From the NCBI GenBank assembly GCA_905178155.1, contig CAJINV010000010.1:3120587-3184586 (forward strand): a stretch of DNA of 64,000 bases. The letters are read 5' to 3'. The notes under the pieces were generated by a model. It worked only from the letters and a program-made list of their open reading frames with translations, was not told where the DNA came from and made no database searches. This document shows positions 14,109 through 63,900 of this stretch, in pieces. Source of the DNA: Amoebophrya sp. A120. Taxonomy: Eukaryota; Protista; Dinoflagellata. Numbering within the stretch: the first letter of the stretch is position 1; each line of letters starts with the position of its first letter. The position numbers and the translations under genes are program-made.

Positions 14109-15807
14109 GGTAATTTCCTTGTCCACGCTTAGGACGCTGCTGGTGAAGTAGATTTTTGTTTCCTTGTAGTGTACTTAGTAGTGCAAACAAGATCAGGACC
14201 GCTGCTCGTCTCACTGTACTATCGTATTTTTATTCGTGCTTGCTTTTCAATAGTTTTAGCTTTTTATGATCTCATCTTGCTGGCGCAGCACTATAGCAGT
14301 CTTACTCAACATAGAAGGAGGCAACAGACGCCAGGTGGCAGAAAAAATGTGCTTAGTGTTAAAGAAAAGATCAGTCGATAACGACAGCCTCGTGCATCTT
14401 GATTTTCGTTGTCGTTCCTGAAGACCTTCACCTTCCTGGATGAAAAAATAAAAAGCATATCTATGTAATGAACAAATGGGGGTTGGATTCAAAATTTGCA
14501 GGTGGATCGGGGTTTCAACAAAATAGTACGACTTACAAAGCAGGATCGGGATTTCAAAATTTTCTTCGCGATTTTCCTGATTCACTAGCCCAGTCAACGG
14601 GACTGGTGGACCGTGTATTTCGATTGGGTTCAGATCAAGAAGATGAATGGGAGCAGCTGCATTTTATTCATTTTTCATCATCTGGTGTGTGACGAGATTA
14701 TTTTCATGATCCGGATCTTCCAGCATGAACTAAAAAGCGGCTCTTTGAATCTTGATCTTCAACTTCTGACCTGTGCTGTCGAAGAGCCGTTGATTTTAAT
14801 TTCTTTTGATTTGCCTGCCCGGTGCATCAGAACTACAACATGCACTGGATCATCTTCGCCTAGTGTCGTCTCCGGATTCGAAATGGAAACTGGATTGAAC
14901 ATCATCACACATCAACAGGGTTCTTTTCCTGTCGCCAAAAGATGCCTGCAATTATTGCGACCCGGTTCAGTTTCGAGTATAATAGATACGTAAAAATGTT
15001 GGTCATGCTTATTTCAGATAGAATTATCGGAGCGCTTTGTCACCTGCTTCTCTGCTGCGCGAGGACGGCGATGTGATCGCGTTTCAATTCGAATGATGAT
15101 GTGCCAGCACTAGGCTACCTAATGCTAATCAAATGTGTATTCATCTCGTCACCAAACAGAAGCCATTGCGGTCCTCTGGTGCAGACAATGAAGCTAAATT
15201 ATAGCTCTAACCCGACTTATTTGAGGGTAAAAAGTAGTCTTTGATTAAAATTATCGTTCAAGTCGGGGTCGGTATTAAGTAATAATATTCTCAAGATTCA
15301 ATAGTACTGGTCGGTGAGTAATTTTTTTTTTTTTTCGAAAAGTCAATGATAAATCCCACGAGTAAGTTTAAGTTGTAGGGAAAACAAGTAAAGTGCGCAC
15401 ATTAGCTGAAAACGATGAACGTGTTGTAAAACTATGACAAGAATGGTAAGAAAAACGCAATTGCAAAATAAATGAATAACAAAACTATACTGTAAAAATT
15501 CGCAGACAATGACAACTCGAAAACAAAAATTTGACTGGTAGTTACAACTTCGCTTTGTTCCTGTCCTCGATCTACTTTTATGGTTCTCGTTACGTCGCCC
15601 ATGACATTCATAAGTAAGTAAGTAGGTCCGTGTCCAGTATCATTTCAACATTCGTACAACTGGAAAAGCCAGATGTCCCAAGATAGCAACAGCACCTTAA
15701 GACGCCCATCAAATCCACAAAATCAGAGCAACAACGAGAAGAACGCTGGTGCTTACGTGAAAGTGCCTGGCACTACTACTTAGCACCTTCTTCGCAAGAA
15801 CCAAGAT

Positions 15808-18782: not shown

Positions 18783-20560
18783 TTTTTTTTTCGCAAGATC
18801 AAACTCAAGAACTCTTTGCAAGATCAAATTCGAGAACTGAACGAAAAGAAACTACTGCAAGTTGTGTGGTTGAATCTTCAGACAGCCGAATTTTGGGCAG
18901 AACGCTGACGCTCTCGTCGCGGTTAATTTTTTGTAAAATATTTCTTAATGGTGCAACTGGAAAGAACTTCTACTACCGAAAGGTAAACTCCAACACGAGG
19001 TGGATAAGGACCTGAGGGGGGGAGAAGGAATTTAAGGAAAGTGACTGACGCAACAAAATCGGAAGAAATTCTACCGAACTATGATTCGTAGCAAAATTTC
19101 TACTGCTCCGAAACTTCTAGAGAGATGACGGCGATGAAGCAGCAGCACATCCTCTTCTGCGGACTGCAAATTATGAGGACGAGAACCGACACCAGGGCGG
19201 CCGCCGCCGCTGCACTATATCTGTATTAAACGCGCCAACAAAAAGGCCCGCGCCAGGGCTAGAACGGACAACGAGAATCTGCAACAAGGAGGACCGAGAC
19301 TTGGCGGAGTATAACGAGACCGACAAATCTCTAAAACTTCATCGTAATATGATGCAGGCCACCGCCGGTGCGAGTCTTCTTTTTAGACAAAGCGACTACC
19401 GATCAAGAAATATACGCTGAGTATTGAGGCGGGACATCACCGTTGCACGAAAACCAAGGAGGCGCTTACGGGTGGTTTTTTCGACCGAAAGATGGCGCTG
19501 GCGTTGCTGACCGAAACACACGACACCACGAGCTCCAAATAAAAAAAGTGGCATATTGTATCATGTTCATATATGTTCTTTATCTTGCTCTTCGGAGCAT
19601 GAGCTCTACTGCCTCTAACAGGCACCAGAATTTTTTTCCTGCTGCCCAAATGTGATTTCAATGACAATGCCTACTTCACTTCTCTACTGTCCGTTATGAG
19701 GGTTTTCAATTTCAAGGATACGTAATGTTGATCTATCATGTTGCCAGAAAGAATAATCAGAGCGCTCTGTCACCTGCTTCCCTGCTGCGCGAGCACGTCG
19801 AGGCCGCGTTTGAATTGGAGTGAGTGACGTACCAGCTCCACCAGCGCAAGGCGGTTATATTTGTGTACTCATCTCCACAAAAAGAAGCTAGTAGCCCGGC
19901 CCTGATGCAGACGATGAAGCTAATAGCTCTACTCCGATTTATTTGAGGGTAAAAAGTAAAAGTAGTCTTTGATGTTCGTTAAAATAAATATAAGTCGTGG
20001 TCGGTACATCATAGTATTCTTAGGATATAATAACATTGCTCGGTGAGTAAATTTTCGAAAAGTCAATTCTGATGAAGATGATAAATAAACGCGAACAGAA
20101 ATACTGCAGTAAGAAGTTTAACAGTTACAATAACAAGTAGGGAAAAAGTGCGCGCAGTAGTTTAGCAGATAGAAAAGGAAAACGATGAATGTGTTGTAGA
20201 AAATAAGCGATGAATTCAAAGAAAGGATGCAATTGCAAAAGTCAATTCAAAACTTCACCTAAAAATTCGCAGGCAACTGGAAAACAAAAATTTGAGTGGT
20301 ACTTACAGCTTCGCGTTCGTCCACGTGCAGTCCTCGATACAATTTATGGCTTTGGCTACGCCTCCGACATAAGCAAGTAGGTCCGTGCTGTCCATTATCG
20401 ACATTTCATTCGTACAACTGGAAAAGCGAGACGTCCCAAGAACAGCAACAGGACCTTAAGACGACGAAATCCACAAAATGATCAACGAGAAGAACAACGC
20501 TGCTGCTTACGCCAACGCGCCTCCTGGCACCACGAGCCACTTCCTCGTAAGAACCAAGTT

Positions 20561-23461
20561 TCAGCAGCAACAAACTGGCGTGTCTGGGCGCTGCTGCTTG
20601 TTCGCGACCGGTGTGTTCGGGTTCGCGCCCGGTGCGTTCGCGACCCGTGCGCCCGCGGCCGGTGTGTTCGGGTTCGCGCCCGGTGCAGCACTTTGCGCAG
20701 CCACGTGTGGACCGTAGCCAAGATATGCCCCGCTCAAAAGACTAGACCAATTCAGCTAAAAAGATGAAGACAACGGCTTCGTTGTTCTTCTACGTAGAAG
20801 TTTATTATAAACTTCTATTCTAGAAAGCGAAAGGCCTCAAAACACATCATATTTTCATACAATTTTCTGGGTCGAATTCGAAATGGTCGAAAATGTAACT
20901 TTCGACACAGAATATGTGGTCTATAATATGCACATATCACAATCAAGCTGTCGAATAAAAATGCCAAGCATATAATGCCTAGTCGACGTGAGCGGGGCAT
21001 ACAGTGCAGCAAGTTGTCAGCATGTTGTGGTTCCCAGCCGTGACCGTGGCTTTCCATACAGGAGGAGGATTGGGTTTGGGAGCAGTGAAGGTTTTGCTGG
21101 CAGCGTCAGAGTTGTACTGCGCCTTGTTGGAACCCTTGTAACCCAGGAAAAACGCGAGCTCTTGGCACACTTCATGTTCGGTCGAAGGCGATTGACCATG
21201 TTCCTCCAGGGCTTTTCTGACTTCGTCCTGGCAGGGCACTTGCTGCCCCCCGGTGATCGTGATCTGCGTATGAAGCAAGTGCGGTCCATAGTTAGAATAT
21301 GCCCCGCTCAGACTAGACGATCTCAACTTCCTAGTGACAACAGTTGCGTTTGTGACTGATGTTGACACAGCTGCTTCGACTTCCTGATGTGCGGTTTTCT
21401 TTTATTCAATACAGCTGCTCCGCCAACCACGCAGGCGGATGGCATAAGACCCAGGAGGCGACTTTCGCGTCCGAATATGCGGGGGGCATCTTCGTATGGG
21501 AGCTTCACCAGGGCCGAAGTTATTGACTTTAAAAACAAAAAAAAAGGCACCCCTTGACGGAGCCCTTCAAGGACAAGGGGGCAACCCCTCCGGGCCCCCT
21601 TTCAACTCTTACGCGCTCAAGTAATATACCGCGGCGGCTAGTTCGAAAGGGGGCGAGTGTGTCAGAGTTGAAACGCAAAATCCCAGCACTTTTCACTTTC
21701 TAGGGGACGGGGACCCATGATACTTATTATTATTTTTTCTGGTTTACATAGAGTATAATTTTCGTGCGGTCGATTTCACATTCGGCGCACTTTTATTTTC
21801 ATTTTTGGGGCTGCGATTTTTCTTTTTTTGTTCCGCACCATGCAACTGATAAAACGCGGCCAACTTCAATTTCAAACCATTGAGAGATAATGTCGGGAAA
21901 GTCGAAGTGAGCGGGCCATACTTCGCAGCAAGTTGTCACTGCATCGTTCAGACCAACGAGAACGGTGCTATCCTGAGTAAAAAAGTTCCCACCCCAGAGA
22001 TGGCATGCAGAAGATATGAGCAATGAAACCCAAAATAGCTCGTAGAACCCTGTCATCTTCCACCAAGGCATGCAGAAGGTATGCATCTCCTGCACATACA
22101 TTTGCAACGCGCATCTTCCCACGAAGAGATGAGATATTACATTGTTCATAAATGGTGTTATGGAAAAATTCTTTTAATGCAGTATCAAACAGGATACTAG
22201 CGACGAGTGCGAGGTGGTTTGTGATCATGCGGCTACCCTTCTTGCTAGCCTGCTTCAATACACGTCTTGTTCAGATAGAAACTTACTAAACTTTATCCCA
22301 AAACGAAACTCGCATCCTGACTCTGGGGTTGGAACGTTTTTACAACCCAGGATACGTGTCACGATCCTCCTTGTCCGGTGTATTTTTGAAACGATTTTCA
22401 AAAAAATCATCGGGGGCATCCAAATTGTCGTTTTCCGCACCATTTTTGTACACTGCCTTCTGATATGCATTGCAAATTATATGTCCACTTGGTCTGGAAG
22501 AATTCAGCGACCTTGAGTCCTCAAGATCAAGTAGAAGGTTTGTCATGCTCGGCCAGCATGAAGGTTCTCAAATCTCCTGTCATGCTACACGTTATGAAGT
22601 ACTCAAAGAAATGCCCCAGTTTTCTCTAATGTAGAAGTGCTGTTTGCCATGCAGAATGGCAATGCCAATGGGCAACACCTAGCAAGAAGAACTCAATAAA
22701 TACTATGTCAACATGCTTGTCTGGAGTAGTTGAGGCATCCTCAACATGGGTCGTGTCCACCCAGCGTCACAAGTGTCCAGACCGAGACATCACAATTGTA
22801 TTCGATATCTCAGGGTCCTTGTAATACAATAGCTCCGCGAAGCGAACGCAAAGCTCAGTTTCGAATTCAGGATGAGGAGGAGGATCCTCCATAATTTCTT
22901 TTTGCTTGGCCTTTTCGAAAAACTTTGCACAGGTCAGCTGGTCCGGCGCCTTGTTGGTTTTCGTAGTGCCCTCGCCGGTACCCGTTCCAAGACCGAGGCG
23001 GCCCAGAAAGTATCCCAGCGCGCAAGAACTACTTAAGTACTTCCCTTCGCCTCGTGCCTGAGGCTCTGCACGGCGTGAGAAGCAACAGAAAACAACACGC
23101 CGACCAGGACCAGAAAGTACTTTCGTTTCTGCATTTTACATCAAACAAAAGTGATTTATTTATTACTATGTCAAATTCATCATGTAGACGTAGGTAGTAT
23201 GCTATATTGCCCTTCTTCTGCAAGAACGTGTCAGGCGTGGTGCAAAGAAAAAGGCCGTAACAAGCGTGAGAGATGCAGAACAGATGCAGTTGTGGTTTGA
23301 CATGCCAAATGAAGACGAGGGATGAAAGTAGCTCTTCCACACTTCCATAGAAACTCCCCGACATCGAGAGCCGCTGTCGGTTCCGGCCCTCCGCCGAAAA
23401 TAAAACCGGCCACACTCCCAGCAAGAACCACGACCACCGTCTTTGTTCGGAAGACTTTCAT
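20561..23461 (-). CDS. Probable multi-exon Cys-patterned repeat-domain protein, copy 2
   Basis: Paralogous to 15808-18782: MKVFRTKTVVVVLAG start, modules ending TCCEVWPAH and TCCTVCPAH, tail ...DTPVCCC*. Confidence 0.5.
20602..20686. repeat. In-frame 51-bp-period repeat expansion (APGANPNTP x2), only in copy 2
   Basis: ccggtgtgttcgggttcgcgcccggtgc occurs twice; absent at the paralogous site ~15850. Confidence 0.75.
21969..22354. mobile_element. Introner family K, same site as 17394 in the paralogue
   Basis: DR GGTGC/CGTGT. Confidence 0.75.
22464..22807. mobile_element. Degenerate family A introner, same site as 17799 in the paralogue
   Basis: DR TCTGA/TCTCA. Confidence 0.7.
23118..23349. 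mobile_element. Degenerate family C-like introner, same site as 18385 in the paralogue
   Basis: DR GAAAG/GAAAC. Confidence 0.5.
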
Positions 23462-24913
23462 GTTTCTTTTTTGCAGGATCAAGCTCAACCCCTGCTTGCA
23501 AGATCAAATTCAAGAACAGAGGGATAAATACTGCAAATGTGGTTGAATCTTCAGACACTCGCCGGATTTATTTGATCAAAACGCTCTCGCGGTCAGTTTT
23601 TATTTTTTCTTTTTCAATCAAACTAGAACTGCTACTAGTGCCGAAAGGTTGTAAACTCCAATACGATGATGAGGACCTGAGGGGGGGGAAGAACGAGAAG
23701 GAAAGCGGCGCAACAAAATCGAGACAAATTCTACCAAAATCAGAAAACGAATTTCTGCTCCGAAAGGAGAACAGCGACGGCGAAGGAGCAGAAGATCCTC
23801 TTCTCCGGGCTGCAAAAGAGGACAAGGAAAAACACCGAGTCCGAGACCGCTCCTGGCGGCTATCAAATCGAACACATCAGGAAAAGCAGGACCGAGGCTG
23901 GGCTAGAACTACGAAGAAGCTACTAGTGTAAAAGACTACCGAGAGTTCTTGGCGCGAAACGAACCCGAAAAAACTAAAACCGAGAAAATCCTTGGTATGA
24001 TGCAAGCCAGCCGGCGTGGCGAACGAAATACAGCGGAGCTGCCGGATACGTTAAGCACTTGTTTTTAAAGAGCCCCATCGAAGATGTCGATCGTGGGGGA
24101 CGATACAGCACGAAAATGACCACCGAGGAGGTACTTACAACATTATTGTTCTCTGGACCGAAACAAGACGGCACTGCAGACCGAGGTGTCGCAGCAGGTG
24201 GACGAATATAATTACCGAGAACTTTTACTCAGCATCGATGTTGATGCTCGCTCTGTTTTCATCAGAATATTACCGACGTGCACAGGAGAGACGAAGTAGT
24301 TAAAGTTATTGGAGACAAGAACGAACTTAAAGTCAAATTTATTATGCAGTGTGCTCCTTGTAAAACAGTGAGGACGACGTAGTTTTAGCTCAATTAACCG
24401 AGGAGAGGACATGATGGGAGATGGAACCGCGCGAAGCAGTGCACGCCTTTTATTTCACGCTCGGTCCTGGTAGTAACGTGGCCTCAACACATGGAAAATG
24501 TCGGAAGAGCTCCTTCGGCAGCTGGCCCTTTTTTAGCAGATTCAATGTGTCGTCGAGGTAAACCTCATAGTTGTAGGTACTTCTCGAGCGTGGTACATAT
24601 AGAAACGTGCTGTGTGCGTGTGCGAGAGTGGCTTCGACATCTTCCTCTTTTCCACCACGACCACGACCACCTCTTCTTCACGTTCATTATCTATAGCAGG
24701 GGAGGACTAGCACAAGCCCAACCCTTGGCTGAGCTGAAACTTCTAAAAAATGAAGAAACGGGGGGTCGTTTTCTTGATGAGAATGGTCCGCAGTTCGTTC
24801 CATCATCATGATCAGGAAAATTGAGTGTAATACAGTTTGCGATATCGTGCATTTCGATTTCATTTGACATTGCGCGTTTGTTTAGCTTGTGTTCTGTGTC
24901 TGTCCAAGCGAAA

Positions 24914-31588: not shown

Positions 31589-32060
31589 TGTTGTTCACAG
31601 AATGTTCACACCTATCTTCATCGGTCAAGATCTTGTTTTCTTCTTGGTCGTGACTACTCGGCTGAGCTTTTTTCTGAATCGTGTACATCGTACTGATATC
31701 GCCGAGTCGCATGAAGAAGTCGTTTTTTTGGGGAATGTTTTTTTACTTTTGCCTTCCTGATTGTTTTGCTCAATCTTGAGCCAACGGCTCACAACAAAAT
31801 TATACAGGTTGCATCGTGTCTCACATGTTCCAGGGTCTATCTAGATGTGAATCAACGTAATGAAACCTAGTGGCCGATTGGCAAAAAAACGGGTAGGCAA
31901 AAGTAAAAAAACATTCCCCAAAAAAACGACTTCTTCATGCGACTCGGCGATATCAATACGATGCACACGATTCAGAAAAAAGCTCAACCGAGTAGTCACG
32001 ACCAAGAAGAAAACAAGATCTTGACCGATGAAGATAGGTGTGAACATTCTGTGAACAACA
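31589..32060. repeat. 166-bp near-perfect inverted duplication (arms 31589-31754 and 31895-32060, 140-bp spacer)
   Basis: Arms are reverse complements with ~3 mismatches; intergenic; no TAT/ATA ends or 5-bp repeat. Confidence 0.9.
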
Positions 32061-37186: not shown

Positions 37187-38183
37187 GTTGATCGTGACCA
37201 CAGCAGGAGTGCTTTACCTTCGCTTTGGTCTGCCTACAACTTGTTTTGTGGTCAAGCTACTATAGATTCCTTACCGTGCTTTCTGACTCCTCTAAGTAGT
37301 TCCAGGAAAAATTTGGTACATCACCTCGCCAACGTTGCGTTTATTTTGCAGACAACTCCATACTTGTAGTACATCTCACCACACACGAGCACGTGGACGA
37401 CGTTCTTTTTTGCATCAGTAGCATTCCCCATTTGCAGTTGCACATTTGCTGGCCTCAAAAGTAAAAGGAACCCTCTCGGTGCAACAACCGTCGACCCTCC
37501 GGCGAGCAGTTTTGAAGAAGCAACCATTTTTTGCACGAGGAACATGCAACACTCCAAAAACAACGAAGACCAACTGTTTCTCTCCTGTCTCTCAATCAGT
37601 CGTCGAGCGAAGCATTAAAATCAGGGTTTCAGCCTTCTTATTTGTCAGTTCTATCTTAGTTGGTTCATCCATTGTATGCTGCGGTGCAAAAGCGACAGCA
37701 GTACTTTTCTTTGTCGAACCGAAAGAACAGAGCGCGCAAATCTCTTCATCTACCGAAGCAATATGCTGGAATGAGTCGACGACGAGATCTTATCTGTCGC
37801 GAATTGTTCACGTTCATCTTCGATTCATATGTGAAAATCGTCTCCGTAGTGCTACATAATTGGTCATCTCTTGTCGCTTCGCGTATATTTATAGAATGTC
37901 GCTGTATGATTTTGACTGTTGCAGCGTCGACCCCCATGAACTCTGAAGAAGTAGAAGCGCGCCGACATCGACATGGGTCGTGGGACTTCTTGCGGTTTCG
38001 AAATATTAAACAATATTATAGGACTCGAGTCTCAATCGTCTCACATCGCGGCCTCAATCTGATTGTCTTTCAGTGTAGCTCCTGCCAAGTTCTTGCCAGT
38101 AGTACTCGTCCTGACAAACAATAATAGTAAGTTCGGCAACTATTGCACAACTAACACGGCCGGCTAAATAAGCTAACGATCCA

Positions 38184-40396: not shown

Positions 40397-41378
40397 TTTT
40401 TGTTTTAGCGTTTTGCAGCTCTGTGCAATTCACCACGCTTGCGCTTGGTGATAAGCGCTTTTCTGCCGCCGCCACGCAAATGAGTGCACAACTAGAAGAT
40501 AGAGGCTCTTGTCAATATACAACGCAATAACACTAAACGCAAAACAGTTTCTTCAGCGAGCACGTTTTTTGTTGAGACGCCCCGATGTTGAGTGTTGTTT
40601 CTTTTTTATTCGTCCCGCGGCACAATTATCGATCATAATTTTACTGCATCGACTCGACCACTCACTCGACGTCGATAATTCCATCGACATGTCGCTCGTC
40701 TGTATCTCTACTCCACCGTGTCCTCAGTAGCATTCCCCATTTGCAGTTCCACATTAATTTGATGACCTCAAAAGTAAAAGGAACCCTCTCGGTGCAACGA
40801 CCGTCGACCCTCCTCTGACAAGCAGTAGTTTTGAAGCAACCAATAATTTTTGCACGAGGAACAAGCAACACTCGAAAAACAACGAAGACCAACTGTTTCG
40901 CTGTCTCTCAAGTAGTCGTCGAGCGAACGAGTAAAATCAGGGTTTTAGATTCTGTTTCTGATTCTGTTTCTGTTACTTCATCCTTCATTTATAGATTACA
41001 TGTCCCGGTGGAAAAGCCACAAGCACAATAGTGATTTTCTTATAAATATGTCGAGCCGAAAGCAGTGGCAGAAAGCGCGCAAATTTCCTCTACCGAAACA
41101 ATATGCTGGAATGACAATGAGTCGACGATGAGATCTTATGTATCTGTCGCGGATTGTTCAAGGAGCTCGTCCCTTAATAGTGTGAAAATCGTCTCCGTGG
41201 TGCTACATGGGTCATCTCTTGTCGCTTCGCTTATATAGAATGTCGCTGTATGATTTTGACAAATGCAGCGTCGACCCCCCTGAACTCTGAAGAAGCAGAA
41301 GCGTGTCGGCGCCGAGGTGGATCGTGTCTGCTGCCGTTTCAACATGTAGGAATCGAATCCCAAACGACCACCGCGGCC

Positions 41379-44300
41379 TCAATATGATTGTCCCCCAGCG
41401 TAGCTGTAGCTGCTGCCATCAAGTAGTTCTCGCCAGTAGTACTCATCCTGGTAAAAGTCTCGATACCTCGTCACCGCTGCGTCGTCTCCGTAGCACATGC
41501 GGCACCGGCAGCCGCTGCGGTGCTGCAGATGCTTCGGCAGAAGCCGATCCCGGGCGAGGAGCGGGACGAGGAGAGGCTTTTGACGTGCTTGCGGTGTTAC
41601 TTCTGATCGCCTTTGTCTACTGGGTCGTGCTTCATCATCATCATCGTCCACTTCATGGGCTGTTGATTCGGGTTCTTGCGCCCAAACTTCTCTTTGAATC
41701 TGGTCGGAGCAAGGTTTATAATTTACGGCGTTTTTGATATCCTCAGGACGACCGGGTCCTGATCTACTTCTCGTGAAGTTATCCTGTAGCTCTTGACCCG
41801 CTCCGAAAAGCCGACTTCTCTTCTCACGGGAAGACGGCGGCAGGGCAACATCATCAATATGAAATGTAAAAATGTCTGGGTCTGGAAGAGTGTGAACTTG
41901 TCATGCAGGTTTTCCCTGACCCTTGAGGTCTGGAATGCGGGGCCTAGCATGGCAGAGTCTGAGAGGTCTCTTTCATGCCTATCCTGCATGAGAAACTCCC
42001 TCCGACCTTGGTCGAAAGTGGCCAGCTTTTGGCACTCATGCAACACAGATTTTTGCATGATTCGGATTTAGCATGACAAGTTGCAATCTTCCAGACCCAG
42101 ACATTTTTGCATTTGATAATCAAATTGAGCGTACGACGGGTCCCGTATGTTCCCCAACTGGTTCCAGACCAAGGCCCGTTAGCATGAGAAGTGGTGAATT
42201 TGTAGTGGATTTTGCATGACAAATTGCAGATGAGTCCGCCGGGACATTGTCCCTCTTGCCCTTCTGGGAAGTGGGTTCTGCACACCGCAGAAGTCAAGGC
42301 TTATGCGGCGGGCAGCTTCCAGGCCCTGGGTGCCGTTCATCTTTGGCCATGTGTATTCGTCTCCCTGAGCTCGCATAAGATTACTGCAGCAGCCGCGGCA
42401 AAGACGCCAAAAAGCAAGCGCTGCGAAGCAAATGCAATTAGGCAAGAAGGCGCTTGTCTTTCCTCCTCGGCCCCACTTCCCAGGGCCTACCTGTGCGCTT
42501 TTTTGAGCACTTTTCTGCGCTAAAGTTTGCTTATCACGGTCGAAAAGGGGGGCCCGGTGAATTTTGGGGTGAATTTTGAAAAAACCGTGGGTGAATTTTG
42601 GCCCGAGGTGCCTATTCAAAATTCGCTAACGCACGAGAAACTTCGGGTTTTGGGGCTAAATTCACCAAGAGAATTCCTGACCTTGGGGTCACGTCGAAAA
42701 GGCCTCGCTCCGGAGGCAAAAACACGCCTGGGGAGTTGGGAGCAGAGCACAGCAGGCGAAGCAAGCTACCGTCCGCGGCCGAATCGTGCCTCCCCTTCCA
42801 CCTGAGGCTGCTCCCAGATATCCAAGTCCAAGCCGAGCCAACCACAACTCGTGAGGGCATACATGTTGAACTAGTGCCCGTGTGTTCATCAGGCGTCGCC
42901 CTCCCTTTCGACAATTCCGGAGAGGAACTTCTCAGGCAGACGCACAGAAGAGTAAGAGCCACCCGATCCACCTTCTTTGGTTACATACGCACTACACAGC
43001 CCGGCGAGCGAGCCCCCGCAAGACCACTTCTTTCGGTCCTGCAAGCGCCACCACGCGACGAGCAGCCCTTCACGCTATGCGGGATGCTTGGGCTCGTGTG
43101 TCTAATACCTAGCGCGCTTCCCTTTTAAGTACTTAAATCTAAATGCAAGTCATGCAATACAAATTCACTGCAAATTCACCCTTCTGTACGCTAACGACCG
43201 TCCAAGGCATAACAAATTGAGCGTAAGACGGGTCCCGTATGTTATCATGATGGAGTTCTCAACTGTTACATTCTCAACTGTTACATGAATTTGCGATGCA
43301 AGAACAGCGAAAGTGAAAGGGAGCACCTTGCAGCTCTAGCATCACAAGTTTGGCACAGATTTCCATGCTGTTTAGCCCTTCTGAGATTTGTCATGCGCAG
43401 CCGCTTGGTCGTGCGGTTGCTTATGGCAATTTTGCATGACAAATCATGTAACAGTTGAGAATGTAACATTTGAGAACGCCATAATCATCAAATCCGTGGA
43501 ACCAGCTTGGGAACATACGGGACCCGTCAGCGTAAGACGGGTCCCGTATGTTCCCAAGCTGGTTCCAGACCAAGACCTCGTCTATCCTGTGCAAAAGTAT
43601 CGTACTCGTACTAATCGCATTCATGCATTACAAATCTTGCTGTTAAGGTAAATCCGCATTGCAAATTTTCTTTCTCATGCTGAGGAAATTTGTCATGCAT
43701 TTATACGAGTACGATACTTTTGCAATGCATATCGTCGGCGCAGCTGGGGTCGAAAGCACGCTTCCAAGTGCAGCTCTTGCTCGTCCGTAAAACCACCAAA
43801 TCTCCGCATCCGTTCACCGAAAAACGGAATCCGGGCTTTTTCACGCGGCGCAAGTCGGAAAACTTATTTGTCGCGGCGGCCCGGAAGTCATTTTGACGCC
43901 ATTCGTCTTCTTGAGAAGACGAACAAGGGCCTGCAAAGCTGCTGGTAGAAGAAGTTTCAGGTTGTCTTGGTTCATCGTCATCTTCCTCGGCTGCATCTAC
44001 TTCATCGTCTCCCCTGGAGGTGCTCTCATCCGGCCGCTTCGCGGTGTTCAGGAGTCGCATGCCAGTCGCGGACGGGAACTTCTCATGCCACAGCGGATTG
44101 TCGTCGAAAATCTCCGTCCAGTCGTTTACACAGGAAGGCTCTTCGTCCTCATCTTCATCTTGATGTTCATCGTGAGGACGACCACCATCTTGTTCGTGAA
44201 GATAATTATCACCGTCCTGATTTTTCTTCTGCAGGAGTTGTATTGCCTCGTTCTTCTCGGCAATTGTCCCGTGCGTCAGGTGCTTGGTCAAAAAGTCGCG

Positions 44301-54600: not shown

Positions 54601-57600
54601 TTTACTCGCAGTCGGCGGGGAAGAAGTAGAGGACTGAAGTTTCTTTATTTCGTCAGAATCTTTTTCGAGGACGTCGTCCTGCTGATCCCCTTTCCCGCCA
54701 GCTGGTGACGCTGGGCCGCGTAGTAAACCTGGAGAGACAACCCACTGCCTTCCCGTCTTGTTTGCGATGAAATGTTTCTCTTCGGTCATAGGGGCATCAT
54801 CTTGCTCGTGACTGACCCGCGCTGTAGATCGTTCGTCTTTGTCAGCTGCAGCAGAAATTGTGTTTGTGGCCCCCGCTCGACTATCAGCATGATCCGCCGT
54901 GGTCCTTCGCGGGCCCGTGATCCCTTCTGCGAGCACCAGGGAAACCGGGTGCGCGACCCGTCTCGCGCTGTAAGGGGGGAAGTTGCTGCTCGTTCCGTCG
55001 TCCGTTTCGTCCTCTTCGGACGCCGAGCCGGAGGAGATGCTATGCGTTGAAAGTATGTGGTCTAGGTCTGGATTTGTCATGCGGGTCTGGAAGGACAGCA
55101 AGATCTGTGATGCATAAATGCCATTCTTTGGTAAATTATCTCTCCGCATTAATGTTAATCGGGAAGAACCTGAGGGAAAGAACTTCTCTTGCTATTATGC
55201 CATACAAGCGGCCAACCTGCAATGCAGATACCAGCAATACAAATTTCGAACAAACCAAAAGACCACACGTTTGCATTTGTGTTTCATAAATGCCCCCGAT
55301 GTTCGATTTTTTCTCCAAGTCAACGGAGGAGGAAGTGAAGTTGGCACTTTGCTGGCATGAAACAGCTATCCAGCGAAAAAGCATCGCACACGACTACTGG
55401 TGTAAATATCTATCTATATCATCGCAGTCATGCATGACAGATTTATTGGATAACGGAAAACAGAATTACAAATTTCATTTTTACTCATGGCTAAATTTGT
55501 ATTGCAAGTCTAGAAGTACGTCGATACTTTTGCAATGCATAACGGCCTTCTTCTTTTCGTCCTCGGGTGAACAACGGGCGGCGGACTCGAGCCGGACTGC
55601 TTCGGAATCAACATGGTCGGAGGTTACGCCAGAGGGCTCGTCAACAATTACAGCATGATGTTGATCCGTGCAGCTCCTGTGGAAGTCGTCTACCGCAAGT
55701 GGTTCGTGGTTCATGCTGGCAGGATGTTCGGTCTGTGCAGTTTTGGCCGACATTCTTTCTGCATCTGCGCTGTAATTTGCATCTGCATGTGAAATTTTGC
55801 CTCGCTCAGTTGCACCTTCTGCTTCGCGTGCGTGTTCCTGATCTCCGCCCCCGAGGATTTCCACCTGACCGGTGGAAGCTTGTGATGCTCCCGCTCCTCC
55901 CGGGTGGTCAGCATTAGTGTCATTCTCATCTGCCTGGGAAAAGCAGCTTTCCAACTTCTCCTTGGAAAAGTCTGCAACGGACTTCGTATCCTGTGCAAAA
56001 GTATCGTACTGGTACTCGTATATTAATCAATGCATTACAAATTTCCTCAGCATGAGAAACAAATAGAATTTGTAATACGGATTTACCTTAAGAAAAAGAT
56101 TTGCCATGCAAGACTTGCATTTATACGAGTACGATACTTTTGCACAGGATACTTCGCGTCCTCAAACGATCGCCACGTGTCTCCGGGACTGGTCATATAA
56201 TCGTATGCAAGAAAAAAACTGTGTATAGTGTATATTTGTGTTGCAGAGGATGCAACAGAGTTATACCTGTCATGGCAGACAGCCATGAAGTCCTCTTTTC
56301 ATGTGTGTTTTCCCTTGCAAACCATGCATGACAGGTTTTCTCTGTCATGTAGAGCAAATTTGTGATGCTGTTCCTCAAACAAAGTTACACTTACACACTT
56401 TTTTTCCTGGATAAATCGTTGTAATTATTGTTCAATGAATTATTATCGCTCTTCGACTTCGCCAAGTTCTTGTCGTTGTCCCCCGACTGCTGCTGTGTGG
56501 TTGAAATAAATTGCTCCACCTCCATTTGATCGATCTCCAATTCGTTCGAGGTCACAAACGCCGACGTCCGAGCGGTCAAGAAGGGCTCCGTGTAGGAATC
56601 GATGTCGTCGTCTACTTCAACAGCTCCTTGCTTCACGACCTTTTGGCTTGTTTGCATTTGCTGGGGGTTACAAGCAGCTGCCCCCCCGGTAACCACGGTG
56701 TCATTGTCATTGTCAGTGTCATTGTCAGCATCTCCATCATCTGCTGGCTCCTGTTGATGCTCCTCACGATGTTGAGCATCCTCAGCACTTCCTTGCTGAT
56801 TCGCATCTTCACACACTTTCGTAACCTGATCCAGAAATTTTTTCATGTTCACCACCTCTTCCTGGACGGATTCCTGCTCCATTGGCTCGTCCAGCGGAGG
56901 GCTGTCCAGGATTTCGTCCTCGTTTTGGTCGGTTTTCGTGGTTGTAGAACAAATAGGAACCTTATTGACTTGTGAAGATGCAGAAGCGGCGGGAAGATCT
57001 TCTTTAGGCGCTGCTGCAACGCTGTCCGTAGTGCCTTGCCCTTGTCCTTCGCTCGTTGTCGAAGTTTTGATACAGGTGTTATTGAAGGAAACCAGGGTGC
57101 TTTCGCCGTCCGGAGATGCCTGCTCTTGACCGCCGAGGTGGCTGCTGGTGATATCATTCGCTTTTGGAGGTTTTGCAGTGGCACAACTGGCAGTGTTATC
57201 TACATGTACCTTTTCAGTCTCGAACGCCGCTCCTGCTGCGCCTCCGGCCTTCTGGTTTTTCGGTTTCTTCTCCTCCGTGTTCTTGGACGTGGTTTTCTTT
57301 TCCTCGTCGGCATCGGCGTGGTCCGCATGTTGAGATGTACCGGACGACGCGCCGGAGAGATGGAGATTCTCTTGGGCATCATCTTCAACCTCGTCGTCGG
57401 GCTCCATTAAGGTGTTGCGCTTCCTGTTGTTCTTAACGCTCCCCGGCGCATCTTCACTAGGACTCGCGCGGCCATCTTGCTTCTTGCAAATATCCTCCAC
57501 CACCTCGGCAGTCTGGTCCTGCTCCTGCTCTGCGCTAGCAGCAGGACGGGCAGCGGTGCCGTCATGATTCCCGAGACGGTCTGTGGTCTCACCGTCGTGG

Positions 57601-59669
57601 TCTTTTTTTTCCGCCTCGTCCGTTACGGCGGCACCTTCTTTACCGGCACAACGACTAATCGTGCAGGAGCCAGTACCACCCGGTGTACTAGTTGCCGTCA
57701 TGTCTTCTACCCCCTTGCAATCCATCGCCGCTGGTACACCTGCACCGCCTCCAAGATTTTTGAGCGCCATAGCGGCCTTGACCAGATTCCGGGCCTTCAC
57801 CCATTTCGACTTTTTGAACACCGTCTTCCGCAATTTCGCACGACACCGCCGAGCGTTCTGTGTGATCTTCGCCTCAACTTGGCGCCACAGTGCGTGGAGG
57901 GCCTATGCAGGGCAAAAACTAGAACATTCGCGGCAACTATAAGCATACACTGCACTGCCGCTGTAAATTTGAATTTCAATTTTGTCAACAAAGAAATACA
58001 ATGGACAGGTCACCATGCAGACTCAGGCAAGAAAGCAGGTCTGTCATGCAAGACAAAGACTAAGATTGCAAGTTCTTTTGCACAGGATAGAAACTCGCGT
58101 TCCGCAAACTGGTTGTCGTGGCCGGACAGGAAACTAGACTATGAACTGCAAAAGTATCGCACTCGTATAAATGCATTACAAATTTCCTCAGCATGAAAAA
58201 TAAAATTTGTAATGCTGAGTTGCCTTCAGACAAAAATTTGTGATGCAAGGCTTGCATTTATACGAGTACGATACTTTTGCACAGGATATAGACGTCTCGT
58301 TGCTGATGTCGACCACGTTCGGACCAAAATTGCCGCTCTTGTCATGAACATGATGCGAGGAATTATCCAACAGCATGCTGCTATTGGACAAAGACGAGGA
58401 GAACAGGTTGTTCTTGACAGCGGAGGATAAGCCTGGAGGAGGAGAAGCAGCGGTAGGAGTAGTTCCAGCGCCAGGATAATTGTTCTCCGTCGCGAAAGTC
58501 GTCATGATCCCCGAGGAAGCAACAACTATACCGGTAGAAGAAGCTTTGTTCAACTTTTCGCGAAAGAGGGTCGCCGCTATGAAATGCAAAAGCATCGGAC
58601 TCGTGGAAATGCATGGCAAATTCCCTCAGCATGAGAAATGAAATTTGTAATGCGGATTTACCTTAAGAAAAAAACTTGTAATGCATGATTGCGATTACTA
58701 CGAGTACGATACTTTTGCACAGGATAGCCGCGGCTTCGCAGCAAATCTTCTCCAACTCCCGCACCCGGGCGGTCCAGGTCAATTCCGAAGTTACTTCGTC
58801 TTCCGCCTCGTTTTTCCGTGTCGTGGTTGTACTGGTACCTCCGGAAAACATCTTCTCGCTCTTGTCCGTTTTCGTTTTTGCATCCCGCCCAGGAAGCGGC
58901 TTGTTTTCTTTATCTTCTACTTCCGATTGTTCCGCTTCGCCTCCAGCGGTCGCAGGTTTAACAATCCCTGTTTCCCTTTCCGTCCTGTTGCCAGCAGTGA
59001 AGCCACGACCACTTTCATCCTCCACTAGAATTTTCTCTACTGCGTTTTCCTTGAGCAAGTCCACCGCCCGCAAGCACACGCTCTCCAGGGTAGCGGATAC
59101 CACCGCGACCAGAAACACGTGCGAGGACAGGTGCTCTTTTGGGGTGAATTTTTCTGTATCAAATGTAAAAATGGCTGGGTCTGGAAGAATGCAGATTTTT
59201 GTCATGCTGTTTTTGCATGACACAAAATGTTTGTCATGGAAGCCCTAGCATCAGAGATTTCGAGAAGCTTCCGCATTGCTTAATCCGCATGACAAATCCC
59301 CCACTTTGGTGACAGGAAGTGGGCACCTTTTGCTACCTATGCATGAGAGATTTCTCTGAGTTGTGAAATGCGCATCACAAGTTCGCATCCTTCCAGACCC
59401 AGACATTTTTACAATCCATATTCTGTCGCGAGGTGCCAAATGTCGGCCACCAGGTCGGCTACCGCTTGGTCGCGGTGCTCCGAGGAGGCGAGGGATGCGG
59501 TAGAGGAGAAATTGAGGACTTTATTCTCATTTCGCCGGTTGTTCTCGGGGGCACAAGAGGCTTCTTGCGTTGCGTATTTGTTTTCGTCGGGCGGTCCGAT
59601 TGATGGGCCGCGAAAGGAAGCCGTGAGAACAGCTTCGCAGCTGGCGAGACGCTGCGACACGGCTTCCAT
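48627..59669 (-). CDS. Very large low-complexity protein of unknown function, ~2718 aa, 15 introners
   Basis: All 15 junctions in frame under the element+5 rule (11043-2886=8157 nt); no domain recognised. Confidence 0.8.
48939..49125. mobile_element. Degenerate introner
   Basis: tatcct...gcata; DR AGAGA/AAAGA; in-frame removal. Confidence 0.7.
49229..49377. mobile_element. Introner family B
   Basis: DR GGTTC/GGTCC. Confidence 0.9.
49408..49659. mobile_element. Introner family D
   Basis: DR TTCTT/TTCTT. Confidence 0.9.
51433..51603. mobile_element. Introner family B
   Basis: DR CGAGC/CGAGT. Confidence 0.88.
52545..52698. mobile_element. Introner family B, left end CAT
   Basis: DR CTTCG/CTTCC. 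Confidence 0.85.
52741..52885. mobile_element. Introner family B
   Basis: DR AGTTT/AGTTT. Confidence 0.9.
54019..54225. mobile_element. Highly degenerate introner
   Basis: cat...gata; DR GCTAG/GCTGG; in-frame removal. Confidence 0.6.
55041..55288. mobile_element. Degenerate family A-like introner
   Basis: DR GATGC/AATGC; in-frame removal. Confidence 0.75.
55367..55541. mobile_element. Introner family B, aged
   Basis: DR ACAGC/ACGGC. Confidence 0.82.
55987..56151. mobile_element. Introner family B
   Basis: DR CTTCG/CTTCG. Confidence 0.9.
56204..56413. mobile_element. Introner family G
   Basis: DR AATCG/AATCG. Confidence 0.85.
57904..58089. mobile_element. Degenerate introner with decayed direct repeat
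   Basis: tatgcagggcaaaa...ttttgcacaggata; GGGCC/GAAAC; of two candidate left ends only this one restores frame. Confidence 0.7.
58140..58288. mobile_element. Introner family B
   Basis: DR TAGAC/TAGAC. Confidence 0.9.
58578..58726. mobile_element. Introner family B
   Basis: DR GCCGC/GCCGC. Confidence 0.9.
59157..59420. mobile_element. Introner family A
   Basis: DR TTCTG/TTCTG. Confidence 0.9.
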
Positions 59670-59885
59670 GACAGTATGTAGATTAAGGTTCTTCTTCTTT
59701 ACTGAGACTGACTGGTCGTGAGGTTCTTCTTCTTTACACTCGTCGTTTCTTGACCTTGAGCGGCAACGGCAGGACCCTTTTGCAGTTCTTCCTGTTCCAC
59801 AGCAGATGAACTACTGCTGGCGCTCGCGGCCGCGAACTGCAGTTCTTTGTCGTCCTTTTTCACATACTGATTCAGCATCTGCTTG

Positions 59886-60150
59886 TATCAAATGTAAAAA
59901 TGTCTGGGTCTGGAAGAATGCAACTTGCGATGCTGCATTTGGATTCCAAAAAAATCTGTATTGCATGAGTACCGAAGGGAATGCAATTTTTGCTACACTG
60001 AGAAGGTATTTGTCATGCGGAATAGGCATCTTCAAGAAGCGCTCACAAAATCTGTACTGCTAGTGTATGCATCACAGACATCATGGCTCATGCAAAACGT
60101 GCATGACAAGTGTCAGAACCTTCCAGACCCAGACATTTTTACAGTTGATA
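59886..60150. mobile_element. Introner family A (empty site at 62246-62250)
   Basis: DR GCTTG/GCTTG. Confidence 0.93.
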
Positions 60151-60181
60151 GCTTGTTTTGCTGGTTTTTTGGGCACTTGGA

Positions 60182-60330
60182 TATCCTGTGCAAAAGTATC
60201 GCACTCGTAGTAATTGCAGTCATGCATTACAAGTTTTTCTTTTAAGGTAAATCCGCATGACAAATTTTATTTCTCATGCTGGGGAAATTTGTAATGCATT
60301 TATACGAGTACGATACTTGTGCAATGCATA
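60182..60330. mobile_element. Introner family B (empty site at 62272-62276)
   Basis: DR TTGGA/TTGGA. Confidence 0.93.
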
Positions 60331-60971
60331 TTGGAACATGAGAACAGCTTCGCAGCTGGCGAGACGCTGCGACACGGCTTCCATGACAGTATGTAGATTA
60401 AGGTTTTGATACAGTTGTCGTGCGGTTTTCCAGAACAGATATAGAAGTCATTATTGATTCTCAACAAGTTTTTGGTCTTATCATTTGCTAGTTCTACCTT
60501 CTTATACTGAGGCACATCACAACGGGAAAGGGGTGCAAAACTGAAAATGTCCTTCGAACGATTTATGAACAGCATTACTTTACTCGCAGAAAAGAAACTA
60601 TACTCATACTGAACATATCTTGACACAGGAATGAAGATTCCACTGGTGCACAAGAACCAGAGCGAGGGGAAACAACGCCCCCAGAGAAAGCAATGACGAC
60701 ACGAAATAACACCATCCCACACATCGTCGTCGTCGAACAACTACCTATACTGTTGTTTATTCTTGTTAAGTAAAGCACTCAGATGAGATTGCTCTTTCGC
60801 CAGAATCTTGGACTTGGTTTCCGCGTTTCTACAATTATTCAAGCATAAATAGGTCCTTATTCATCGTGATGATTTGAACTTGCGAAGATGAAAGGAGGTG
60901 GAGACCGCCTGCGTGCAACAAGGCTAAAACTAAGCAGTTCCTAATCCTGCAGCTGATCGGGAGTGGTCTAC

Positions 60972-63900
60972 TTACTCCTCTTCATCCGCACAGATTTCAC
61001 TGGCCTCTTCCTCCTCGGACGCTTCATCATTCTCCAAGAAGTCACCATCATCTTCCGAGGATCCATCCTCCCCATCCTCGTCATCGTCATGTCCCTGGAA
61101 TTCCGAGGCATCAAACTCCATGAAGCGTTCCGCGGCCTCCCCGTTGAAATATCAAATGCAAAAATGTCTGGGTCTAGAAGATTCCGAGATTTCTCATGCA
61201 GTTTCTCCAAGCTCCACTAAGTCTGGAATGCAGGACCTAGCATCACCGGATCTGCAGCCCTTCTGTGATGCCTGTTCTGCATGAGAAATGCCCCCTCAGT
61301 ATGGCCAGAAATGGGCACCTTTTGCAAGTCACGCAACACAGATTTTTGTATGATGCGCAACATGCATAACAAGTCCCAATCCTCCAGACCCAGACATTTT
61401 TGCATTTGATATGAAAAAAGGGTCCTCCAACTCCAAAAACGCGTCAAAGCCCGAAGAGTTCCCGTTGCAGTTCTGTTTAATCGTCTCTTCATCCAATTCC
61501 AGCAGTTCTTCATTCTCGTTCTCCTCGTCTTGTTCATAAAACCTCTCGACAAACGCGTCAAAAACCGCTTTTTCCTGTGTCGCTTTTGCAAATTCCTCGT
61601 CGGAGATGAGGCTGCTGTTCAGCGCCGCCACGATTTTTTCCTCATCCAAGTCGATGCCGATCAAAACCAATTCCGTGCAGGACGTCCGGTCGATCGCCCA
61701 AGTTTTTAGCTCTTGCTCCTTGTAAAGCCCTTCGTACTTTTTCAGCTGCTGGAGCTCACTCAACTCCTTCTGTTTCAGCAGCTTTTTCCGCTCCAAGATA
61801 AAAGCCACACTGTTCTCCTCGTCTTCTTGAGTTGTTGCATTATCCCCGTCGCGTCCTCCGCCGTGTCCGAACGCGGTTTTTTCCTCTTGCTGCAGAAACA
61901 GCTCTTCCGGACTCTCCACGCCCGCCTCCCGCATGGCGGATTCAAACGGCTGCCCGGGGTTCAAAGAGAACTGCCGTCCCACGCTGTGCCAGTCCATCCG
62001 GTAGCCGCAGGCGTTCGCGAGCCAAATCTGCCCCTTGGACCGGATTACGCCGTTGAAAATGGCTGACCGGTTGAACTGACTGGTCGTCAGATTCTTCTTG
62101 TTGACACTCGTCGTTTCTTGACCTTGAGCGGCAAGAACGGCAGGACCCTTCTGCGGTTCTTCTTGTTCCACACCAGCGCTGTTGGTGCTCACGGCCGCGA
62201 ACTGCAATTCCTTGTCGTCCTTTTTCACATACTGGTTCAGCATCTGCTTGTTTTGCTGGTTCTTCGGGCACTTGGAACTCCCGCAGCACTTCTTTTTCAC
62301 GACTACAGGCGGCTCTTCAATATTCTCCTCGGTTGCAGCGGGTTTACACAGTTCCTTGAACTTTGGTGGCTTAAAAGCGTGGTCGGAGATTTTCCCGAAG
62401 CCGTTCAGCAGATCAAACAGCTTTTTGGGGTGAAACGGCTTGGACGCGCGAAAAATTACCGAGCTAATCCCATACCGCTCTGCCTGCACCGCCGTCCCCA
62501 TGCAGGCGTCCGTATTCGCGCCGATCTGCTCCTTGCCGAGCTTCGCCGCTTTCCCCGTCCCGTCGTCCTTCAGCAGTTCGTGCATCCACCCGGCCTGGGT
62601 TTCCGCGGTCCGGATATCGAACAGGTTGGTGTTCAAAATTTTCTCGCACGCAACTTTCCCGTGGTCGGTCCAGTAGAGGTTTGCAGCAGGGTTCAATTTG
62701 GTAACCAGGTTTTCTATCAACTTTTTCTTGTACTCCAGGCAGGTGCTGTCTTCTATTTCCAGTTCGGATTTCGCTTGGTCGAGCTCGCGCTGCACGCTCT
62801 CAACCAGCAGGTCTTCCTTGTTCAAGAGAATGACATTTGCGAATTCGATCTGGGCGATCAGTAAACCGGCAATACCCTGGTTCAAGTCGCTATTGTTTTT
62901 TAACTCATGTGGTCGCTGTTCTTCTACTTCACCGCTCTTTCCAGTTGAAGCACCTTCTTTGTCGTCCGATGCAGAGGTGGTCTTCGTCTTCTGCGTCTGC
63001 CCTCCGCCACCAGCAAGCATTGCCTCCTCCTCCTGGATGCTCGCTTCCGCCTCCGCTACCGTCCACTTGGAATTCTTAATCGACTCTTTGGACTGTAATA
63101 CCTCCCAAATGCAGGCGGCGTCGACAACCGTGACCATGGTGTCGAGTCTCGTGCACTTCTGGAGCTGAATGGCCTGGGTGGCGACCAGCTTGCGCTCTTC
63201 TTCAGAAAGAACGCGAGCACTGTTGAATTTTGGAGATGATGGAGAATTTGTTTTACGTATTATCATGTCTACTTGTATTTCATGTTGCTTTGTTCAGCAT
63301 GCACCAGAGAAGGTCTTTTTGTTTTTCAATTTTCAAAAGCTAAAGCGAAGAAAGTTCTACCATCTACTTCGTGGTGGAGGTGGAGGATGACCTTCTACAA
63401 ATAAAGGGTGCTAGAGCCAGAGGTAGTTCATGGTATAGTAGGTTGTAACAAGTACCCTTTTCCATCCGTCACGACTTGTTCCCCGCCCTTCTTTCCGGCC
63501 GCCCGACTTGCGTCGTCAACATCTTTCATGTCAGCAACATCCTTTTCGTCTACAACTTCCTCCTCCTCTTCCTCGACCTCATCCCCCCGAGCAATCTCTT
63601 CTAATTCCTTGATCGAGTGACAGAAGGTTTGCGCGATGGGAACGGGCTCCGCGATGCCCGTAGACTCGATGATGAGGTAGTCGTAATTTGCCGTTTTGTC
63701 GTTCGCCAGCTCTGCAATCTGCTCCACCAGATCCTCCCGCAGCGTGCAGCATATGGCGTTCTCAAACGTTACATTCTCAACGGTTACATGGTTTGTCATG
63801 CGAAATTGCCTTCAGAAGCGCCACCATCAAGCTGCTTCGCATGACAAATTCTCAGAGGGCCAAATTATAGGGTGATAATCGGCGCCAAGTCTGTCATGCC

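What the first reader, a model, noticed from the sequence alone, without database searches (positions are those of the whole stretch)
59624..62278. Internal empty-site / filled-site pair showing the 5-bp repeats are target duplications
Seen: 59707-60337 copies CobW segment 62075-62278. The intact gene has single GCTTG (62246-62250) and TTGGA (62272-62276). The copy has GCTTG-[A]-GCTTG and TTGGA-[B]-TTGGA at those sites, which independently confirms the element boundaries. Differences are mostly synonymous in the CobW frame (CCG/CCA, AAG/AAA, AAC/AAT, TTG/CTG, GTC/GTA). Inference: the fragment comes from a functional diverged allele or paralogue, so either it gained two elements or the resident gene lost them precisely.
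Basis: seen in the sequence. Interest (0 to 1): 0.8.

Follow-up and report, generated by a model that had tools for sequence, protein, structure and literature searches.

The report
Captured gene piece exposes intron insertions
In a marine parasite (Amoebophrya type), a piece of a diverged copy of a neighbouring gene sits between two identical 67-base repeats and carries two transposon-like inserts that the intact gene lacks and that are missing from a likely RNA contig, so it is likely a recent DNA-repair capture that preserves before-and-after states of intron insertion and possibly a trace of crossing between lineages.

Summary
Observation confirmed. 59707-60337 is a copy of CobW 62075-62278 with two extra elements: A (265 nt) and B (149 nt). 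Each is flanked by a 5-nt repeat that is single in the gene. They are the published Amoebophrya A120-type introners.

New here:
- One RNA-like contig carries the copy's own alleles with both elements plus one repeat removed, and runs into the upstream repeat.
- The copy sits between two identical 67-bp repeats that hold the next gene's ATG, with a 17-nt templated filler at one junction.
- 11 of 18 substitutions are synonymous (dS 0.35, dN/dS 0.13), so the donor was likely functional.
- No full-length donor was seen in DNA or RNA contigs.
- B is the copy closest to its family consensus (5.4%), less than the copy-gene split, which favours gain (about 85%) over loss.

Best reading: recent break-repair capture from a diverged allele (50%) or a since-lost tandem paralogue (30%). 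No outgroup was found, so polarity rests on clocks. The scan already noted the 5-bp rule many times, and similar repeat-flanked captures elsewhere in this genome (not tested here).

The parts
59624..59690 (-). R1: downstream copy of the 67-bp direct repeat; holds the predicted ATG (59669) of the next gene, 'gene X'
   Evidence: 100% identical to 60339-60405; the frame from this ATG stays open when three elements plus one repeat each are removed
59686..59706 (.). Left junction: 5-nt microhomology at the end of R1 plus filler; 59686-59702 is an exact copy of 59721-59737 inside the fragment
   Evidence: the 17-mer occurs only at 59686 and 59721 in the window; junction present in contigs of X1 and X7
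59707..59885 (-). CobW-like exon piece of the captured copy; ends in the 5-nt repeat 59881-59885
   Evidence: aligns to 62075-62250
59886..60150 (.). Element A: 265-nt TAT...ATA introner, 29 of 30 terminal bases complementary, GCTTG on both sides
   Evidence: 9 family copies in the window, nearest 13.4% distant; absent from X3 contig 9
60151..60181 (-). 31-nt spacer between A and B (repeat copy plus 26 nt), a micro-exon
   Evidence: matches 62246-62276; the exon sequence is retained in X3 contig 9
60182..60330 (.). Element B: 149-nt TAT...ATA introner, TTGGA on both sides
   Evidence: 8 of 149 from the leave-one-out consensus, the lowest of 17 window copies; absent from X3 contig 9
60331..60338 (-). 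End of the CobW copy (to 60337) and one base that matches neither the gene nor the repeat context (60338)
   Evidence: the X3 loose end begins with this base
60339..60405 (-). R2: upstream copy of the 67-bp repeat in its native upstream context; its ATG (60384) now opens a predicted 49-codon frame through the spliced fragment
   Evidence: X3 contig 9 runs 166 nt past the fragment, to about 60503 if unspliced
62075..62278 (-). Resident CobW segment with the two empty sites (62246-62250, 62272-62276); a lineage-specific linker between the GTPase and CobW_C domains
   Evidence: no homologue of this stretch found
60972..63751 (-). Resident CobW/COG0523-type GTPase gene (its 5' part lies further right); GT-AG intron 63220-63455 and an introner at 61150-61411
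   Evidence: Pfam cobW and CobW_C; X4 contig 12 skips 61145-61411 and 63220-63455; X3 and X5 skip 63220-63455
56391..59669 (-). Gene X, no Pfam match, with predicted introners at 59157-59420, 58578-58726, 58140-58288 and about 57904-58089
   Evidence: in-silico splicing gives an open frame; one low-depth X4 contig at 58983-59157; no homologue found

Best explanation
A 631-bp piece of a second, likely once functional CobW copy sits between two identical 67-bp repeats at the next gene's predicted start; it likely gained two TAT...ATA introners with 5-bp target duplications before a recent break-repair template switch copied it in, most likely from a diverged allele of another lineage. Steps: (1) Two CobW versions diverged (dS about 0.35) under purifying selection (shown by the substitution pattern). 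(2) The donor gained A and B; each insertion duplicated 5 bp (repeats shown; gain inferred from clocks, about 85%). (3) A break near gene X's ATG, 1.7 kb from the homologous CobW site, was repaired. The end of R primed on a 5-nt microhomology, copied 12 nt, re-primed, copied the donor with its introns, gained one base and rejoined 67 bp back (junction anatomy shown; enzymology inferred). (4) The gene X upstream region now transcribes R2 plus the fragment, and both elements are cut out with one repeat each, without GT-AG (shown in one RNA-like contig). This would create a 49-codon upstream frame, while R1 keeps gene X's start intact (predicted).
For: Filled/empty pair and 67-bp identical repeats. 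11:7 synonymous to non-synonymous changes, dN/dS 0.13 by both alignments; 5 of the 7 amino-acid changes lie in one 19-nt Ser/Ala patch. X3 contig 9 (343 nt, depth 4.09) lays on 62105-62278 with 13 other letters and 9 gap bases; its 11 listed differences are the fragment's alleles, it has no elements, and it continues into R2. The same run lacks the GT-AG intron. Gain: B is 5.4% from consensus and 9.4% from its nearest window copy, A is 13.4% from its nearest, against pS 0.28 (p=0.005, 0.010, 0.024). An intron shared by an older tandem pair diverged about as fast as synonymous sites (44/333 vs 8/50), which supports the clock. Recent capture: 0 of 67 mismatches in R, P=0.002 at the fragment's 9% divergence. 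For an allele rather than a paralogue: at 80% likeness no full-length relative near 90% identity was laid on CobW in X1, X3, X5 or X7, only a distant paralogue matching 138 nt at 86% plus a 27-nt patch; no other relic lies in the window. Meiotic, non-infective spores are reported for Amoebophrya (10.1101/2025.04.10.648098, abstract).
Against: No outgroup for this linker was found, so gain versus loss and allele versus paralogue are not polarised directly. [quoted passage not shown] B fits the resident family consensus best of all 17 copies, which a same-genome paralogue explains as easily. Tandem paralogue pairs are common in this window. With the Ser/Ala patch included, insertion after capture is not rejected (p=0.20). 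The spliced fragment was seen in 1 of 3 RNA-like runs laid (X3; not X4 or X5), as one low-depth contig, and read-through into gene X is not shown. The contig filter leaves records out, so the donor's absence is not proven.
Confidence: 0.5

Rival explanations
1. The donor was a tandem CobW paralogue in this lineage. It gained both introners, donated the piece by local template switching, and was deleted in the same event or soon after.
For: Two other tandem paralogue pairs lie in the window (14985-19170 / 19717-23816 and 37415-38113 / 40724-41450). Two CobW homologues carry adjacent gene numbers in a source's names (P0002, P0004). B matches the resident family consensus. It explains the locality and needs no cross.
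Against: It needs a clean loss of about 3 kb within the short time allowed by 0 of 67 mismatches in R, and no other relic was found. The window's older tandem pair shows much protein change relative to pS (63 of 100 codons same, pS 0.16), unlike this copy (59 of 66 same).
Confidence: 0.3
2. Capture was by a non-LTR retrotransposon reverse transcriptase, priming at a staggered cut on unspliced donor pre-mRNA, rather than by DNA-templated repair. This is independent of who the donor was.
For: The polarity fits: the repeat's end would prime synthesis antisense to the CobW RNA, with re-priming at the start and one extra base at the end. Long target duplications are known for some site-specific non-LTR elements (recalled). 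A second repeat-insert-repeat array lies at 42119-43577.
Against: Both introns are retained. The piece is internal, with no poly(A) or 3' end. RNA supplied in trans does not explain landing 1.7 kb from the homologous site. Orientation is a one-in-two match.
Confidence: 0.25
3. A and B are older than the split, and the resident gene lost both precisely through recombination with spliced cDNA.
For: Splicing restores the empty site exactly. The two sites are 26 nt apart, so one event removes both. They lie in a 1.8-kb exon free of introns.
Against: B and A are closer to other family copies than the split allows if interiors evolve near the synonymous rate (p=0.005-0.024). Both of 2 introns examined in the older tandem pair are retained in both copies.
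Confidence: 0.1
4. An intron-free piece was captured first, and A and B inserted afterwards in place, tolerated because they are spliced.
For: Close pairs of elements are common here: 18 of 57 gaps are 110 nt or less. With all 7 amino-acid changes counted, the test is not significant (p=0.20).
Against: R1 and R2 are identical, and only 2 amino-acid changes lie outside the patch: 2 of 209 sites versus 8 of 149 for B (p=0.015).
Confidence: 0.08
5. The fragment is an alternative haplotype or contaminant mis-assembled into the window.
For: No listed piece spans the whole insertion, and X1 may be the assembly's own source.
Against: The left junction is at single-copy depth in X1 and present in X7; the right junction is in a different sample (X3); the templated filler and extra base are not assembler-like.
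Confidence: 0.02

Closest known systems
Introner elements of Amoebophrya sp. A120 (Farhat et al. 2021, PMC7789003; abstract, passages and sections 11, 12, 16 read)
   Same: Inverted ends starting TAT + 7 nt + AAA, short direct repeats at the borders, non-canonical splice sites, repeated families, predicted hairpins.
   Different: The paper gives repeats of 3-5 nt varying in position and says gain cannot be told from loss in orthologue pairs. Here the repeat is exactly 5 nt directly outside TAT...ATA, and a filled/empty pair with clocks favours gain. I saw no such pair in the sections read; its supplements were not opened.
A120 introner families classed as TIR DNA transposons (Gozashti et al. 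2025, PMC12130899; passages, and 22 of 58 A120 rows of supplement 8)
   Same: TIR, non-coding, about 149-nt and 252-261-nt families are listed.
   Different: The column I read as TSD length (my reading; its header was not shown) gives 5 in 3 rows, 4 in 5, 3 in 2, 2 in 4 and none in 8 of 22. No empty-site evidence in the main-text passages ('empty' 0 hits). A and B were not matched to a named family.
Introner with orthologous empty site in Aureococcus (Gozashti et al. 2022, PMC9860276; passages)
   Same: Filled versus empty comparison used to define what an insertion adds.
   Different: There the comparison is between isolates and splice sites are canonical; here both states lie 2 kb apart in one genome and no GT-AG register exists.
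Polymerase-theta / MMEJ templated insertions (PMC12426944; passages)
   Same: Microhomology-primed extension, dissociation and re-priming, with a patchwork junction.
   Different: Such insertions are generally under 25 bp and come with deletions; here a 631-bp diverged gene piece is flanked by a 67-bp duplication.

Membership tests
Amoebophrya A120-type introner element | Terminal inverted repeat starting TAT, 7 nt, then at least three A | tested here: met
   A: 29 of 30 and B: 23 of 30 terminal bases complementary; each left end fits the motif (motif from PMC7789003 section 11)
Amoebophrya A120-type introner element | 3-5-nt direct repeat at the borders | tested here: met
   exact 5 nt for A and B; 32 of 49 elements in the window
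Amoebophrya A120-type introner element | Removed from RNA | tested here: met
   X3 contig 9 lacks both; seen in 1 of 3 RNA-like runs, whose RNA status is inferred from loss of the GT-AG intron
Amoebophrya A120-type introner element | Non-canonical splice ends | tested here: met
   no GT..AG or GC..AG in any of six possible registers for A, B or four neighbours
Amoebophrya A120-type introner element | Member of a repeated family | tested here: met
   9 (A) and 17 (B) copies in the window; very high summed contig depth in X1
Non-autonomous TIR DNA transposon (MITE) | Fixed-length, sequence-variable target duplication that is single at the empty site | tested here: met
   32 different 5-mers; two empty sites
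Non-autonomous TIR DNA transposon (MITE) | Autonomous partner with the same ends and a transposase | not tested
Polymerase-theta templated insertion | Short, microhomology-primed copy of nearby sequence at the junction | tested here: met
   17-mer at 59686 and 59721
Polymerase-theta templated insertion | Insert generally under 25 bp | tested here: not met
   the main insert is 631 bp (size rule from PMC12426944)
Polymerase-theta templated insertion | Dependence on polymerase theta | not testable with these tools
   needs genetics
Retrocopy (processed pseudogene) | Introns removed, mRNA 3' end and poly(A) tail present | tested here: not met
   both introns present; internal fragment; no tail

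The most novel reading that the evidence does not exclude
Amoebophrya lineages about 0.35 dS apart mate or share a cell, and break repair copies pieces of the partner's mis-paired chromosome into the genome between long target duplications. These captures are a fossil record of hybridisation and of allele-specific introner insertions. Because the introners splice by their own ends in any context, the captured pieces become new transcribed 5' exons or upstream frames at once.
Probability: 0.35. Interest if true: 0.68.

Novelty: new variant of a known kind. Interest (0 to 1): 0.45.

Why it matters
The published account leaves open how Amoebophrya introners move, whether their flanking repeats are insertion scars, and whether intron differences are gains or losses. 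This locus gives a before/after pair at base resolution: +5 bp per insertion. It also shows that two elements 31 nt apart are removed from a chimeric transcript in a new context, so the signals are likely local, and the 630-bp cassette is a ready splicing substrate. If the donor is a foreign allele, such captures give genomic evidence of exchange between lineages thought to be isolated, testable with existing strain sequencing. The introner class itself is known, which caps the interest.

Tried and rejected
- No whole genome was held, so no genome-wide search for the donor or for nearest element copies was possible.
- The whole-protein homologue search timed out. The linker region 270-400 found nothing among 173 candidates. 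The CobW_C region gave 12 proteins, best named Amoebophrya sp. A120 (42%) and A25, none with this linker (5 sequences aligned).
- The metagenome scan gave 13 loci, all distant CobW relatives (29-62%), none matching A, B or the segment at DNA level.
- Gene X has no Pfam match and no homologue (weak evidence).
- No listed holder run is on record as RNA. Raw RNA runs X9 and X10, of another sample with the same species label, laid only 37 and 4 reads, in element-containing bins, so they gave nothing on CobW.
- X4 and X5 showed no fragment-allele contig; contigs show presence, not absence.
- The two older tandem pairs gave no further empty sites: pair 1 shares both introns examined, and pair 2 loses homology before its elements.
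- Perfect TSDs as a clock were rejected, because an old shared intron keeps its flanks.
- My first test dropped codons 28-34 and gave 10:2; the full count of 11:7 is the one used.
- The cut register cannot be fixed here because the repeats are perfect.
- Paper searches listed no report of an Amoebophrya filled/empty pair or allele capture; only listings and the named passages were seen, most subscription papers are missing, and bioRxiv supplements are closed.
Full report
What is there. The window is eukaryotic DNA dense in short elements. The gene at 60972-63751 (minus strand) is a CobW/COG0523 GTPase by Pfam. Its best named relatives are from Amoebophrya sp. A120 and A25, and the element ends match the A120-type motif TAT + 7 nt + AAA (PMC7789003, section 11). 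The 5-nt rule is general: 32 of 49 elements called without looking at flanks have an exact 5-nt repeat, all different, against a mean of 0.039 in shuffled pairings; lengths 3, 4, 6, 7 and 9 never occur.

The copy is bracketed by a 67-bp repeat, 100% identical (59624-59690 and 60339-60405). The repeat holds the predicted ATG of the next gene, whose frame opens when its own elements plus one repeat each are removed. At the left junction, 17 nt that begin with the last 5 bases of the repeat are an exact copy of 59721-59737 inside the fragment. At the right junction there is one extra base. This is the anatomy of an insertion made with microhomology priming and re-priming, plus a long target duplication.

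Is it real, and is it spliced? DNA-like run X1 holds the left junction at depth 25.6, against 26.3-28.6 for neighbouring single-copy contigs, and X7 (same sample) holds it too; X1 contigs break at 59653 and 60376, where the 67-bp repeat should break them. X1 may be the assembly's source, and no piece spans the whole insert. In RNA-like run X4, one contig skips 61145-61411, that is the resident CobW introner plus one repeat, and also the GT-AG intron. In RNA-like run X3 (a different sample from X1; CobW contigs identical to the window; no cover inside the GT-AG intron), contig 9 lays on 62105-62278 with 13 other letters and 9 gap bases. Its 11 listed differences are the fragment's own alleles, its 177 nt equal the spliced fragment length, and it continues for 166 nt into the upstream repeat and beyond. 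So the copy is transcribed from gene X's upstream region with both elements and one repeat each removed. None of six possible cut registers gives GT-AG; both elements are predicted to fold as separate hairpins. This was seen in 1 of 3 RNA-like runs laid, at depth 4; X4 and X5 did not show it, and continuation into gene X is not shown. The spliced chimera would encode a 49-codon upstream frame, out of frame with CobW.

Where the piece came from. The nucleotide alignment gives 18 substitutions in 201 columns and in-frame gaps of 3 and 6 nt. Of these, 11 are synonymous and 7 are not, 5 of the 7 lying in a 19-nt Ser/Ala patch: pS 0.28 (0.15-0.44), dS 0.35, dN/dS 0.13; p=1.6e-4 against neutrality and 0.005-0.015 against a pseudogene-since-split model. 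A protein-guided alignment gave dS 0.47 and the same ratio. The donor was therefore likely functional for most of its history, while the capture is recent (0 of 67 mismatches; P=0.002 at 9% divergence). Laying four runs on CobW at 80% likeness showed no full-length donor, only a distant paralogue that does not cover this segment; the tool's filter makes this moderate evidence.

Gain or loss. No outgroup exists in the collections searched. Because splicing restores the empty site, the pair alone cannot exclude cDNA-mediated loss. Clocks favour gain. B is 8 of 149 from its family consensus, the lowest of 17 window copies, and 14 of 149 from its nearest copy; A is 35 of 262 from its nearest. All are below pS (p=0.005-0.024). 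An intron shared by an older tandem pair diverged at about the synonymous rate, though gene conversion may blur that calibration. Insertion after capture is disfavoured outside the Ser/Ala patch (p=0.015) but not with it (p=0.20). I put gain in the donor at about 85%.

Mechanism. Most likely a break at gene X's start was repaired by switching to a nearby diverged CobW template and back. An allele on a paired chromosome from another lineage needs no further event and explains the locality (50%). A tandem paralogue needs a clean loss as well, but tandem pairs are common here and B fits the resident family (30%). Meiotic spores are reported for Amoebophrya (10.1101/2025.04.10.648098, abstract), whereas k-mer data suggest little gene flow between ribotypes (PMC7018713, passages). 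Reverse transcription of unspliced pre-mRNA is a rival enzymology (25%). A second repeat-insert-repeat array at 42119-43577 shows that long duplications recur in this window. Unchecked notes of this scan describe the same build elsewhere in the genome, one with neighbouring genes in another intron state; they moved me towards the allele reading but are not evidence.

Novelty. The introners are published (PMC7789003), are classed as TIR elements (PMC12130899, passages and 22 of 58 supplement rows), and their repeats are already called target duplications in a review (PMC11282704, passages). The scan has noted the 5-bp rule many times. What this locus adds is a base-exact filled/empty pair, support for gain, splicing in a new chimeric context, and a candidate trace of exchange between lineages. 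Verdict: real; a new variant of a known kind; interest 0.45.

Noticed in passing
window 42119-43577: Second repeat-insert-repeat array: a 24-49-nt sequence occurs at about 42121, 43209 and 43529, with an inverted copy at 43497-43528, around a 1-kb insert with no other match in the window and an introner.
   Followed up: partly
window-wide: Elements cluster: 18 of 57 gaps are 110 nt or less (p=8e-5 against random), only 2 are 111-220 nt, and longer gaps show a weak periodic signal (peaks near 180 and 250-260 nt; p=0.026 after scanning periods). This recalls linker-biased insertion; element calls include a few false positives (1-4 per shuffle).
   Followed up: partly
window 14985-19170 and 19717-23816: Tandem paralogue pair, about 70-73% identical with blocks of up to 51 identical bases (possible gene conversion). 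It shares two old TAT...ATA introns, one with the same imperfect flanks in both copies. The second copy has internal tandem duplications of about 65-72 nt.
   Followed up: partly
window 37415-38113 and 40724-41450: Second tandem paralogue pair, about 76% identical; the homology fades before the elements.
   Followed up: partly
window 31589-32060: Long inverted repeat, 178-nt arms 96% complementary with a 116-nt loop; possibly another element family.
   Followed up: no
X1 contig 2, X3 contig 7, X5 contig 11 laid on 61920-62057 and 63114-63140: A distant, apparently expressed CobW paralogue elsewhere in the genome, with 615 nt where this gene has 1056.
   Followed up: no
window 59886-59934, run X9: RNA reads from another sample with the same species label match the family-A terminus but have a different interior, and none lay on CobW exons: related termini in another lineage.
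   Followed up: no
window 57904-58089: The predicted fourth element of gene X has mismatched flanks, yet removing element plus 5 nt opens the frame into the 480-codon ORF.
   Followed up: partly
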